From a virus (taxonomy: Duplodnaviria > Heunggongvirae > Uroviricota > Caudoviricetes): a stretch of DNA of 64,000 bases. Of the stretch, positions 30,395 through 40,776 are shown piece after piece. The stretch covers positions 26,245 to 90,244 of IMG/VR virus record IMGVR_UViG_3300020577_006051; one strand, written 5' to 3'. Made by a program: the position numbers and the translations under genes. Position 1 is the first letter of the stretch, and each line of letters starts with the position of its first letter. Below the pieces are notes generated by a model. That model made no database searches. It saw only the letters and a list, made by a program, of their open reading frames with translations, and had not been told where the DNA came from.

Positions 30395-31222
30395 ATGTCT
30401 TCTAAAAAGAGAAAAAATCTAATCAATAGAAGATTTAATAGACTTTTTGTTCTGAGTTTATATAAAACTATACAATACAAAAAGTCTAAAAAAGATTTAT
30501 ATTTATGTAAATGTGATTGTGGAAATTCTATTGTTACTAGAGGTGATTCACTTTTGAATGGTAGAACAAAGTCATGTGGATGCTTTTCTAAAGAAACAAT
30601 AATTAAAAACAACGTAAAAAGAAAAATACCCAATGGTGGGGCTGCTATTAATATGCTTTTTAATAAATATAAAGAGGGCGCGGTCGTAAGAAATTTAGAA
30701 TTTACAATTAACATGGCTTTTTTTAAAAAAATAACCAAACAAAATTGTACATACTGTGGATCAAAACCAAGTCAAATAGCTAAAACTAAATGTAGTTCAT
30801 ATAACTATAATGGAATTGATAGGCAAGATAATTTATTAGGTTATACAAAAGAAAATTGCAAACCTTGTTGCAAAATATGTAATCGTGCAAAAATGGATTT
30901 AAGTTGTACTGAATTCTTAAAATGGATAGAGCAAATAAAATCGATGACATCTATAAAGTGTTTTTATCTTAAAAGAATAAATGATGTTAGTGGAACTAGT
31001 GGAACAGGTATTGTCGCTATTGGTGGTATTTTACCATCAGGTAAATGTATTCTTGAATGGACTAGTTCTGAAATAACCGAAACCATCTTTGAAAGCATCG
31101 ATCAAATCGAAAGAATTCACGGTCATGGCGGCAAAACTCTAGTAATCATGGGGAACCCAAATGAGCAAGAAAAACCAAAAGCAAAAACAAAGTCCAAAAC
31201 AAAAGCAAAAGCCAAAAAGTAA
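30395..31222 (+). CDS. HNH homing endonuclease, CxCDCG/HNH_3 family
   Basis: RFNRLFVLS...LCKCDCGNSIV...SCGC and NGIDRQDNLLGYTKENCKPCCKICNRAK; about 28% GC. Confidence 0.8.
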   Translation: MSSKKRKNLINRRFNRLFVLSLYKTIQYKKSKKDLYLCKCDCGNSIVTRGDSLLNGRTKSCGCFSKETIIKNNVKRKIPNGGAAINMLFNKYKEGAVVRNLEFTINMAFFKKITKQNCTYCGSKPSQIAKTKCSSYNYNGIDRQDNLLGYTKENCKPCCKICNRAKMDLSCTEFLKWIEQIKSMTSIKCFYLKRINDVSGTSGTGIVAIGGILPSGKCILEWTSSEITETIFESIDQIERIHGHGGKTLVIMGNPNEQEKPKAKTKSKTKAKAKK

Positions 31223-31622
31223 GAAGATCGGAAGTGAAGTAACATTTACTTTATTACCATCTACAAATATTGCGGTTAAACCTTCTGAAGGTCGTGGTCG
31301 CGGTGTATTTGCAGTTAAAGATATTAAAGCAGGTGATGTAATTGAAGCTGCACCCACAATCGATATTCCTTCTAAAGAAATTGCTTTCGTTAATGCTTCA
31401 AGATTGGCTCACTATATGTTTGAGGGTGTGTTCTCCGGTGAAGGAGTTATTGCTCTGGGTTATGCAAGTCTATATAACCATGATAAAAAATCGAATGCTT
31501 CTTGGGAGATGAACGACGGATTGATCGTTATTTCTGCCGACAAGAATATCAAAGCAGGTCAAGAGATTTTCTTAGATTATGGTTGGGGCAAAGAAATGCT
31601 CAAAAAATTAGGCATCAAATAA
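31161..31622 (+). CDS. SET-domain protein methyltransferase with basic N-terminal tail
   Basis: GRGVFAVKDIKAGDVI, YNHDKKSNA (NHxC-like) and EIFLDYG motifs. Confidence 0.7.
   Translation: MSKKNQKQKQSPKQKQKPKSKKIGSEVTFTLLPSTNIAVKPSEGRGRGVFAVKDIKAGDVIEAAPTIDIPSKEIAFVNASRLAHYMFEGVFSGEGVIALGYASLYNHDKKSNASWEMNDGLIVISADKNIKAGQEIFLDYGWGKEMLKKLGIK
31172..31219. repeat. imperfect (CAAAAG)n low-complexity tract
   Basis: about 8 hexamer-like units; encodes K-rich tails in two frames. Confidence 0.6.
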
Positions 31623-31631
31623 GGAGTAAGT

Positions 31632-32381
31632 ATGAAACAATTTCTTTTACCATTATTGATCTTAGCTACAGGTTGTACAGTCGTTAGTCCTGGTGAACGT
31701 GGCATCGGCATCTCTCAAGGTGAGATCAATAAAGAAGTTCGCAAGCCAGGTACCTATCTTTGGATCCCTCACTTTCGCGGTAGCGCTGTCATGGATGTTC
31801 AGATCCAGAAGAGCGACATCGAGTCTGGTGCAGCTACAAAAGACCAACAAGAGCTTATGACTAAAGTTGCCGTCAACTGGCAAATTGAAGAAAGCAAAGT
31901 GGTAGAGATCTACGAGAACTTAGGTAACCTACGAGCTGTACTAACAAACGTAATCGAGCCTCAAGTTCACGAAGTAATGAAAGCTTGTGTTTCGAAGATG
32001 TCCGCAGAAGAAGTGTTGTCGAAGCGTCAAGAACTTAAAGAACAGATGGATGCTGCACTCAAAGCACGTCTATCTCCTTACGGAATCACTATTCGCGACG
32101 TGTCGATCATCAACTTCGAGTTCGGTAAAGAGTATAAGAATGCTATTGAACAGAAGCAAGTTGCAGAGCAAAAAGCTAAGCAAGCTGAGTATGAAGCGCA
32201 AAAAGCAGAGCAAGATGCTCGTGCTGCGATCAATACAGCTCGTGGACAAGCTGAATCGCAGAAGTTAGTACAACAGACATTGACACCACTAATGATTGAG
32301 TTGAAGAAGGTGGAAAAATGGGATGGCAAACTACCGACGACAATCTTGGGCAACACAACCCCAATGATCAATGTGAAGTAA
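31632..32381 (+). CDS. SPFH/band-7 (prohibitin-like) lipoprotein
   Basis: lipobox LATGC; VVSPGERGIG band-7 start; long Ala/Gln/Glu coiled coil. Confidence 0.75.
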   Translation: MKQFLLPLLILATGCTVVSPGERGIGISQGEINKEVRKPGTYLWIPHFRGSAVMDVQIQKSDIESGAATKDQQELMTKVAVNWQIEESKVVEIYENLGNLRAVLTNVIEPQVHEVMKACVSKMSAEEVLSKRQELKEQMDAALKARLSPYGITIRDVSIINFEFGKEYKNAIEQKQVAEQKAKQAEYEAQKAEQDARAAINTARGQAESQKLVQQTLTPLMIELKKVEKWDGKLPTTILGNTTPMINVK

Positions 32382-32598
32382 CAGTTTCAGATAGAACTGT
32401 TTTTTCTAGTTTTACTAAGTCTACTCGCTGGGCACACAATGAGCTTCATAAGAAGTGCATCATAAAAGATAACCTCATGTGTGTCCTTCACCAGCTCGAG
32501 TGCATAGATATTGAAACATACGCTAAGTTCATCGAACATAACGAACAGACTGTGTTCGAGATCATGTTCAGTACGGGTAATTTGTTCAAGGGAACTTT

Positions 32599-32997
32599 AT
32601 GAATCAGGTGGGTGAATACATAGGTTGGTTAGGTGCTTTGTGTCTAGCTATATGCAGCTTACCGCAAGTGATTTATACTATTCGATACAAGTCAGCAGAC
32701 GGCATATCATGGGGATTCATACTGCTGTGGTTCGGCGGTGAGATCTTTACTCTAGCTTATTTATTCATGACTGGTCTTGCGACTTATCAACTGATCTTTA
32801 ACTATGGGTTGAACCTGATAGGACTAGGGATAATTCTCTACTACAAGATCAAGGAACGGTACGACGAGAAACAGAGACATAAAGATTATATTATGAGTCT
32901 GAACCAAGATGCTGCTTTCCACAATCTAATGGAAATGTTATTTTGCTTTGGTTCGATATCTCATAAAACTTTTAGTCGATACCTAGATAGAAGGTAA
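32599..32997 (+). CDS. PQ-loop-like small membrane protein
   Basis: SLPQVIYTIRYKSADGISW plus 3-4 TM helices. Confidence 0.5.
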   Translation: MNQVGEYIGWLGALCLAICSLPQVIYTIRYKSADGISWGFILLWFGGEIFTLAYLFMTGLATYQLIFNYGLNLIGLGIILYYKIKERYDEKQRHKDYIMSLNQDAAFHNLMEMLFCFGSISHKTFSRYLDRR

Positions 32998-40071: not shown

Positions 40072-40776
40072 ATGGAAACGATGCCTCTCATTCTACCAAA
40101 AAGCGAAAGTGACGAGATCTGGGTCACAGAGTTTAATCCGCAATCTGCTCAAGAATTTAGAGACCGAGTCTTGGAAGAAGCCAAGAAAGGTCCAGATCGC
40201 CCTATCGTTATCTACATCGACAGCTACGGTGGTCAAGTTGATTCCTTGGCCAAGATGATTGCTACACTAGATGAAGTATCGAATCCTATCGTTACTTGCT
40301 GCATGGGCAAAGCAATGAGCTGTGGTGCTATGTTGTTAGCTCATGGCGATGTCCGTTTCTGTGATAGTCATAGCCGAATTATGGTTCATAAAGTTAGTGC
40401 AATGGCAATGGGTAACGTAGACGATATCGTCACAGACACGGAAGAGATTTCTCGTCTAAATGAATATTGGATGAATGTATTGGCAACGGACTGCGGAATC
40501 AAGGGTGGATATCAGGAATTAAGTGAGATCTTACGTTCTAAGGATGGTCATGAACGTTATTTCACACCGCAAGAAGCTAAGACATTTGGTCTCATCGACA
40601 TTATTGGATTACCAAAGGTTGTTGCTGATACGGTCTACGATGTGGCTACTATTCCTGTCAAAACATCTCCATATAAAGAAAGCAAGTGGCGGGCAAAATA
40701 TAGATCAGAACCCGAAAAGAAAGCACCCCAAACGAAAACTCTTAAAAAGAGTAAAACAAAAGGAGCTAAGAAATGA
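40072..40776 (+). CDS. ClpP-family serine protease
   Basis: IVIYIDSYGGQVDS ... CMGKAMSCGAMLLA ... IMVHKVS; K-rich tail. Confidence 0.8.
   Translation: METMPLILPKSESDEIWVTEFNPQSAQEFRDRVLEEAKKGPDRPIVIYIDSYGGQVDSLAKMIATLDEVSNPIVTCCMGKAMSCGAMLLAHGDVRFCDSHSRIMVHKVSAMAMGNVDDIVTDTEEISRLNEYWMNVLATDCGIKGGYQELSEILRSKDGHERYFTPQEAKTFGLIDIIGLPKVVADTVYDVATIPVKTSPYKESKWRAKYRSEPEKKAPQTKTLKKSKTKGAKK

What the first reader, a model, noticed from the sequence alone, without database searches (positions are those of the whole stretch)
31161..32997. SET-domain methyltransferase next to an SPFH/band-7 lipoprotein and a PQ-loop membrane protein
31161..31622 has SET-domain motifs (GRGVFA, NHDKKSNA, EIFLDYG) and a Lys/Gln-rich N-terminal tail. 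SET enzymes are known from chloroviruses (vSET) and some bacteria but are rare in phages. It is followed by a lipoprotein with a canonical band-7 domain and long coiled coil, then a PQ-loop-like 3-4 TM protein. The trio may remodel host nucleoid proteins or membrane microdomains.
Basis: partly seen in the sequence, partly recalled or inferred. Interest (0 to 1): 0.6.

Follow-up and report, generated by a model that had tools for sequence, protein, structure and literature searches.

The report
Phage SET-domain protein lysine methyltransferase
An uncultured large phage carries a small, apparently intact SET-type protein-lysine methyltransferase from a phage-enriched branch of a widespread prokaryotic family; the membrane-protein genes next to it are unrelated add-ons and not partners in a three-gene system.

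Summary
All three gene calls are correct. 31161-31622 encodes a 153-aa SET-domain protein (Pfam 48.6 bits, cut-off 22.4) with every catalytic motif invariant. Its AlphaFold core superposes on chlorovirus vSET (TM 0.87, rmsd 2.3 A). 31632-32381 is an SPFH/Band_7 lipoprotein and 32599-32997 is a single-repeat PQ-loop (SemiSWEET-like) membrane protein.

The proposed trio is not a module. The closest related phage (L093) keeps SET in the same position but has neither SPFH nor PQ-loop. Reciprocal profile scans of 97 other viral loci (1.09 Mb) and 80 cellular SET loci found no co-occurrence. A fourth small conserved gene lies between SPFH and PQ-loop.

SET is rare in cultured phages only. At least 107 IMG/VR loci carry relatives, and the wider family has about 9,000 representative clusters and includes Methanosarcina Go1-SET-type proteins (40% identical), which methylate a chromatin protein.

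The only conserved tight linkage is with the upstream gene. That gene is an Acb5-family (anti-CBASS nuclease) homologue whose Lys-rich C-tail overlaps the Lys-rich SET N-tail in another frame, in both phages.

Most likely function: an active stand-alone lysine methyltransferase that modifies a basic, nucleic-acid-associated host protein. The substrate is unknown. This is a new member of a known kind, of moderate interest.

The parts
31161..31622 (+). SET-domain protein, 153 aa: minimal SET core (about residues 37-143) with no pre-SET or post-SET Zn-cluster domains. Member of a phage-enriched 'D-Y-G-W...G-I' subfamily.
   Evidence: Pfam SET 48.6 bits. Invariant GRGVF, YNH, G-E-x4-Y. AF2 mean pLDDT 81.9, core >90. 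Foldseek vSET 3kma_A E 3e-10, TM 0.87, rmsd 2.3 A. 40% identity, E 3e-26, to a Methanosarcina SET protein.
31161..31232 (+). Lys/Gln-rich disordered N-terminal tail of the SET protein (residues 1-24, net +10). It is encoded by the same A-rich DNA that encodes the Lys-rich C-tail of the upstream gene in another frame.
   Evidence: Sequence. Composition. pLDDT 50-68. Same arrangement in L093. Basic tails are frequent but not universal in the subfamily.
30944..31222 (+). Acb5-like (anti-CBASS cGAMP nuclease family) segment, overlapping the SET start by 62 nt. In the window it is the C-terminal part of ORF 30395-31222.
   Evidence: 53% identity to the 91-aa L093 protein that carries a precomputed PF26761 (Acb5) hit. 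phrog_7499 hit, E 6.7e-21. R11/W39/H61 match the functional R10/W38/H61 of Acb5A (sequence). The local Pfam copy lacks the model.
30395..30943 (+). HNH-endonuclease-like N-terminal half, fused in frame to the Acb5-like segment. Absent from L093, so probably an inserted homing-endonuclease gene.
   Evidence: PHROG HNH/endonuclease hits on residues 3-189. L093 has stand-alone Acb5 directly after the OMP-like gene.
31632..32381 (+). SPFH/Band_7 (prohibitin/HflK/C-like) lipoprotein, 249 aa. An independent accessory gene in a variable slot.
   Evidence: Band_7 124 bits. phrog_200 E 1.9e-53. Lipobox and A/E/K/Q-rich segment. GGAG Shine-Dalgarno 6 nt upstream, 9 nt after the SET stop. Homologues in 286 GenBank phage records. 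Absent from the L093 slot.
32318..32602 (+). Small conserved ORF of unknown function between SPFH and PQ-loop. True start uncertain: ATG 32318 overlaps SPFH, and ATG 32477 is the alternative.
   Evidence: 35% identity, E about 1e-7, to L093 12337-12576. ATGA stop/start overlap with the PQ-loop gene. No family hit.
32599..32997 (+). Single-repeat PQ-loop, SemiSWEET-like 3-TM membrane protein (residues 5-86) with a soluble C-terminal extension of about 45 aa. An independent accessory gene.
   Evidence: PQ-loop 54.2 bits. Best PDB matches are SemiSWEETs 5uhs/4qnc, E 1e-3. NCBIfam SemiSWEET_2 28.8 bits, below the cut-off of 80. 46% identical homologues of 87-99 aa in L094 and L181.

Best explanation
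The SET gene encodes a catalytically competent, stand-alone, minimal SET-domain protein-lysine methyltransferase of the vSET/Go1-SET type. It uses S-adenosylmethionine to methylate a lysine on a protein substrate.

It belongs to a subfamily found mainly in phages of very different G+C content, which branches from a large family of ~125-aa bacterial and archaeal SET proteins. It is expressed from the phage's long co-directional array of early/accessory genes and is probably translationally coupled to the overlapping upstream Acb5-like anti-CBASS gene.

Inferred, not shown: the +10 disordered N-terminal tail holds the enzyme on nucleic acid (nucleoid, or possibly ribosome/RNA), and the substrate is a small basic DNA-associated host protein whose methylation helps host takeover.

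The SPFH lipoprotein and the SemiSWEET-like PQ-loop protein are separate envelope-directed accessory genes dropped into two variable slots of a conserved backbone. They are not partners of SET.

Confidence by step: real gene with SET fold, about 0.95. Active lysine methyltransferase, about 0.75. Not part of an obligate three-gene module, about 0.9. Substrate is a nucleoid-associated or other nucleic-acid-bound basic protein, about 0.3.
For: Fold and motifs: Pfam SET above cut-off. Invariant SAM-binding and catalytic motifs across 109 homologues. Y140 aligns with the C-terminal Tyr of the vSET 'ISYG' motif. AF2 core pLDDT >90. Top structural hits are vSET, Set7, PFL0690c, SETD8 and MLL1.

Family: >7,000 word-index hits and 8,975/3,422/65 representative clusters at E<=1e-3/1e-10/1e-30. 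Cellular members are in Saprospiraceae/Lewinellaceae, Methanosarcina, Bacillaceae and others. The Methanosarcina protein is 40% identical, and Go1-SET methylates MC1-alpha in vitro (PMC3980110).

Phage enrichment of the D-Y-G-W subfamily: 8 of 9 sampled contexts are phage-like, with G+C from 29% to 68%. 49 of 110 top single-domain representatives carry the signature.

Independence from SPFH and PQ-loop: synteny with L093, reciprocal HMM scans, and no recurrent SET-specific neighbour in 48 dereplicated viral locus groups.

Coupling to Acb5: the start codon is embedded at the same codon pair in both phages.
Against: No activity, SAM-binding or substrate data exist for any phage SET; I found none in the searchable literature. 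The nucleoid-protein target is an analogy from distant relatives, and the window encodes no HU/IHF/H-NS/Fis homologue. The basic tail is not a clean hallmark of the subfamily: median net charge +4 against +3 in other family members. SET co-occurs loosely with Band_7 in L175 and with a 46%-identical PQ-loop gene in L181, so a weak functional or ecological link to those genes is not excluded. The host is unknown.
Confidence: 0.6

Rival explanations
1. Counter-defence pair: SET works with the overlapping Acb5-like nuclease as an anti-immunity operon. It would methylate and inactivate a host defence protein (for example a CBASS or other signalling component), not a nucleoid protein.
For: The Acb5-SET overlap, with the start codon at the same position, is conserved in two phages whose proteins are only ~50% identical. 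Acb5 is an experimentally shown anti-CBASS cGAMP nuclease family (bioRxiv 10.1101/2025.07.12.664507). The region also carries RNA-repair genes (RNA ligase and PNK; RtcB in L093) typical of counter-defence. One other subfamily locus (L180) carries a Lar-like restriction-alleviation gene about 3.5 kb from SET.
Against: Only one lineage (two genomes) shows the linkage. A profile search found no Acb5-like gene next to SET in about 90 other viral loci. No PADLOC-related hits. Gene overlap is common in compact phage arrays and need not mean shared function.
Confidence: 0.15
2. SET methylates phage-encoded or translation-apparatus proteins (virion, replication or ribosomal proteins), as non-histone SET enzymes do in eukaryotes, to tune stability or assembly. 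It would not be remodelling the host nucleoid.
For: The subfamily occurs in phages spanning 29-68% G+C, which suggests a target that is either universally conserved (ribosome, RNAP, EF-Tu) or phage-borne. In L181 SET sits between a ClpP-like protease and DNA polymerase A. Some SET enzymes target ribosomal proteins or Rubisco (general knowledge, not tested here).
Against: No conserved phage-encoded neighbour that could be a dedicated substrate. The nearest characterised relatives by sequence and structure all act on DNA-associated basic proteins.
Confidence: 0.15
3. One reading: SET, the SPFH lipoprotein and the PQ-loop protein form one functional module that remodels the nucleoid and membrane microdomains together.
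For: The genes are adjacent, co-directional and tightly packed (9-nt gap with SD; ATGA overlap). Band_7 lies 1.6 kb from SET in L175, and a 46%-identical PQ-loop gene lies 5.4 kb from SET in L181, in otherwise dissimilar phages.
Against: The closest relative, L093, has SET without either gene within 10 kb. There is zero co-occurrence in 1.09 Mb of other viral SET, SPFH and PQ-loop loci and in 432 kb of cellular SET loci. No locus other than the window has all three. SPFH is widespread in phages that lack SET. SET is predicted cytoplasmic, while the SPFH protein is a lipoprotein exported across the membrane. A fourth unrelated gene interrupts the 'trio'.
Confidence: 0.05
4. The SET protein is a non-catalytic binding module or decoy. 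For example, a Lys-rich tail plus a SET fold could sequester a host factor without methyl transfer.
For: No biochemical data. A Lys-rich tail next to a lysine-binding channel could act as a pseudo-substrate.
Against: All SAM-binding and catalytic residues are invariant across the subfamily and the wider family. That is unexpected for a decoy.
Confidence: 0.05

Closest known systems
PBCV-1 (chlorovirus) vSET / A612L, histone H3K27 methyltransferase (PDB 1n3j, 3kma)
   Same: Virus-encoded, minimal ~120-aa SET core without pre-SET or post-SET domains. Best structural match (E 3e-10, TM 0.87, rmsd 2.3 A, 29% identity). The GxG, NH and E-x4-Y motifs align.
   Different: vSET is from a eukaryotic virus with a histone substrate. 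The window protein is from a phage whose host has no histones. It adds a 35-aa basic disordered N-tail and a D-Y-G-W C-terminal signature. Sequence similarity is modest (phmmer E 3e-6).
Methanosarcina mazei Go1-SET and the ~125-aa prokaryotic SET family (Saprospiraceae, Lewinellaceae, Bacillaceae and others)
   Same: Same family by sequence: 40% identity, E 3e-26, to a Methanosarcina orthologue. Single-domain proteins of similar size. Go1-SET methylates the DNA-binding protein MC1-alpha in vitro (PMC3980110), which shows such enzymes can act on prokaryotic chromatin proteins.
   Different: Cellular members end in 'N-Y-x-G...LWF' and have short N-termini. The window protein belongs to the phage-enriched D-Y-G-W branch. 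I compared it with a Methanosarcina sp. T3 orthologue, not with the Go1 protein itself.
S. pombe Set7 (H3K37) and human SETD8/KMT5A (H4K20)
   Same: Best PDB sequence hit (5h6z, E 7e-9) and strong structural hits. Both are compact SET domains acting on basic histone tails.
   Different: Eukaryotic chromatin enzymes. The residue at the SETD8 Y334 'Phe/Tyr switch' position is aliphatic here (L138, from my reading of the motif-IV alignment; inference only).
Secreted bacterial SET effectors (Chlamydia NUE, Legionella RomA/LegAS4, Bacillus anthracis BaSET)
   Same: Prokaryote-encoded SET enzymes used by one organism to modify DNA-associated proteins of the organism it invades (PMC3980110). Conceptually this is the closest 'works like' analogy for a phage.
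   Different: Those are larger secreted effectors aimed at eukaryotic histones. No sequence comparison was made here.
Phage 'prohibitin family'/SPFH lipoproteins (phrog_200) and bacterial HflK/HflC
   Same: Band_7 domain, lipoprotein signal and C-terminal coiled-coil-like region. Homologues in 286 GenBank phages.
   Different: Far below the HflK/HflC equivalog thresholds: 32-39 bits against 134-159. The function of phage SPFH proteins is unknown.
Bacterial SemiSWEET half-transporters (PDB 4qnc, 5uhs)
   Same: Single PQ-loop/MtN3-type repeat, invariant P-Q, alignment over 3 TM helices.
   Different: Below the NCBIfam SemiSWEET_2 cut-off (28.8 against 80). Has an extra ~45-aa C-terminal extension. 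Very rare in sequenced phages: 1 GenBank record and 9 IMG/VR loci.

Membership tests
SET-domain protein lysine methyltransferases (Pfam PF00856) | Profile match above the curated gathering threshold over the whole domain | tested here: met
   48.6 bits against 22.4; model positions 1-105 of 105; residues 46-141
SET-domain protein lysine methyltransferases (Pfam PF00856) | SAM-binding motif I (GxG) and motif III (N-H) | tested here: met
   G46-R-G48 and N106-H107 are invariant in 109 homologues and align with the vSET and Set7 motifs
SET-domain protein lysine methyltransferases (Pfam PF00856) | Motif IV with the catalytic/lysine-channel tyrosine (E-L-x-x-x-Y) | tested here: met
   G133, E135 and Y140 are invariant. 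Y140 aligns to the Tyr of the vSET 'ISYG' motif.
SET-domain protein lysine methyltransferases (Pfam PF00856) | SET beta-fold (including the C-terminal pseudoknot) | tested here: met
   AF2 core pLDDT >90. 400 PDB SET chains match at E<=1e-3, best vSET with TM 0.87 and rmsd 2.3 A.
SET-domain protein lysine methyltransferases (Pfam PF00856) | SAM binding and methyl transfer to a protein lysine | not testable with these tools
   Needs biochemistry
Minimal viral/prokaryotic SET (vSET / Go1-SET type) | Single SET core of about 110-130 aa, with no Cys-rich pre-SET or post-SET and no other domains | tested here: met
   Only the SET domain was found. The model shows one folded unit at 37-149 plus a disordered tail. 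The protein contains no cysteine (sequence).
SPFH / Band_7 (PF01145) | Band_7 profile above threshold; membrane anchoring; C-terminal coiled coil | tested here: met
   124.1 bits against 23.6. Lipobox LATGC and A/E/K/Q-rich segment 161-225. The coiled coil was judged by composition only.
HflK / HflC (FtsH modulators) | NCBIfam equivalog score above cut-off | tested here: not met
   hflC 38.7 against 134.4; hflK 32.3 against 159.4
SemiSWEET transporters | Single 3-TM PQ-loop/MtN3 repeat with conserved P-Q, about 90-100 aa, family profile above cut-off | tested here: inconclusive
   Pfam PQ-loop 54.2 against 22. P22-Q23 invariant. Aligns to SemiSWEET structures at E 1e-3. However, NCBIfam SemiSWEET_2 scores 28.8 against 80, the protein is 132 aa with an extension, and only 2 windows pass KD>=1.6.
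Acb5 anti-CBASS nucleases (PF26761), for the upstream overlapping gene | Profile match; ~90-aa protein; functional residues R10, W38, H61 | tested here: inconclusive
   The L093 homologue has a precomputed PF26761 hit. The window segment is 53% identical to it with R11/W39/H61. The local Pfam copy lacks the model. In the window the segment is fused in frame to an HNH-like domain.
   Absent from the collinear relative L093. Zero co-occurrence in 97 viral loci (1.09 Mb), 80 cellular loci and 2 megaphage loci. Only pairwise, non-adjacent co-occurrence in L175 and L181.

The most novel reading that the evidence does not exclude
The conserved, frame-overlapping Acb5-SET pair is a translationally coupled counter-defence/takeover cassette. 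The SET enzyme would be the first phage protein-lysine methyltransferase shown to disarm or reprogram a host protein (immune or nucleoid-associated). The shared A-rich dual-coding stretch, which gives both proteins Lys-rich tails, would be functionally constrained, for example as a common nucleic-acid tether or as a (pseudo)substrate for SET.
Probability: 0.12. Interest if true: 0.7.

Novelty: new member of a known kind. Interest (0 to 1): 0.35.

Why it matters
In the literature I could search, protein lysine methylation by SET enzymes has not been studied as a phage strategy. Yet this analysis shows a recognisable phage-enriched SET subfamily in phages of hosts spanning 29-68% G+C, with more than 100 loci in IMG/VR. 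Finding its substrate would reveal a new layer of phage-host interaction: post-translational methylation of host nucleoid, translation or immune proteins. It would also shed light on what the thousands of uncharacterised ~125-aa bacterial SET proteins do. Conversely, showing that the three-gene 'module' is a juxtaposition of independent accessory genes saves experimental effort on a non-existent system.

Tried and rejected
- Near-identity DNA search of 28-36 kb against GenBank phages: no match.
- Single-protein pattern scans for SET, the OMP-like protein and the Acb5-like protein in IMG/VR, and for SET in JGI metagenomes: no relatives confirmed. The low-complexity K/Q pattern probably saturated the metagenome scan.
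- Exact-sequence look-up of the source contig: not on record.
- Neighbour-family enrichment around viral SET genes: only core phage genes recur (tail sheath, SNF2 helicase, PolB, SOD, GMP reductase), which is lineage synteny and not a partner.
- Promoter and terminator scan of 28.5-34.5 kb: not above shuffled expectation, so no operon boundaries could be drawn.
- Search for HU/IHF/H-NS/Fis-like candidate substrates in the window: none.
- PADLOC scan of the trio and its neighbours: no hits.
- NCBIfam: no named family for SET.
- Host and taxon inference from PNK, RNA ligase and RNR: best hits are 30-43% identical and scattered over Streptomyces, Caulobacter, Rhodobacter and megaphages, which is uninformative.
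- The idea that the basic N-tail defines the phage subfamily was weakened by the larger sample.
- The idea that the ClpP/NfeD1b-like protease at 40072-40776 partners the SPFH protein was rejected, because L093 keeps the protease without SPFH.
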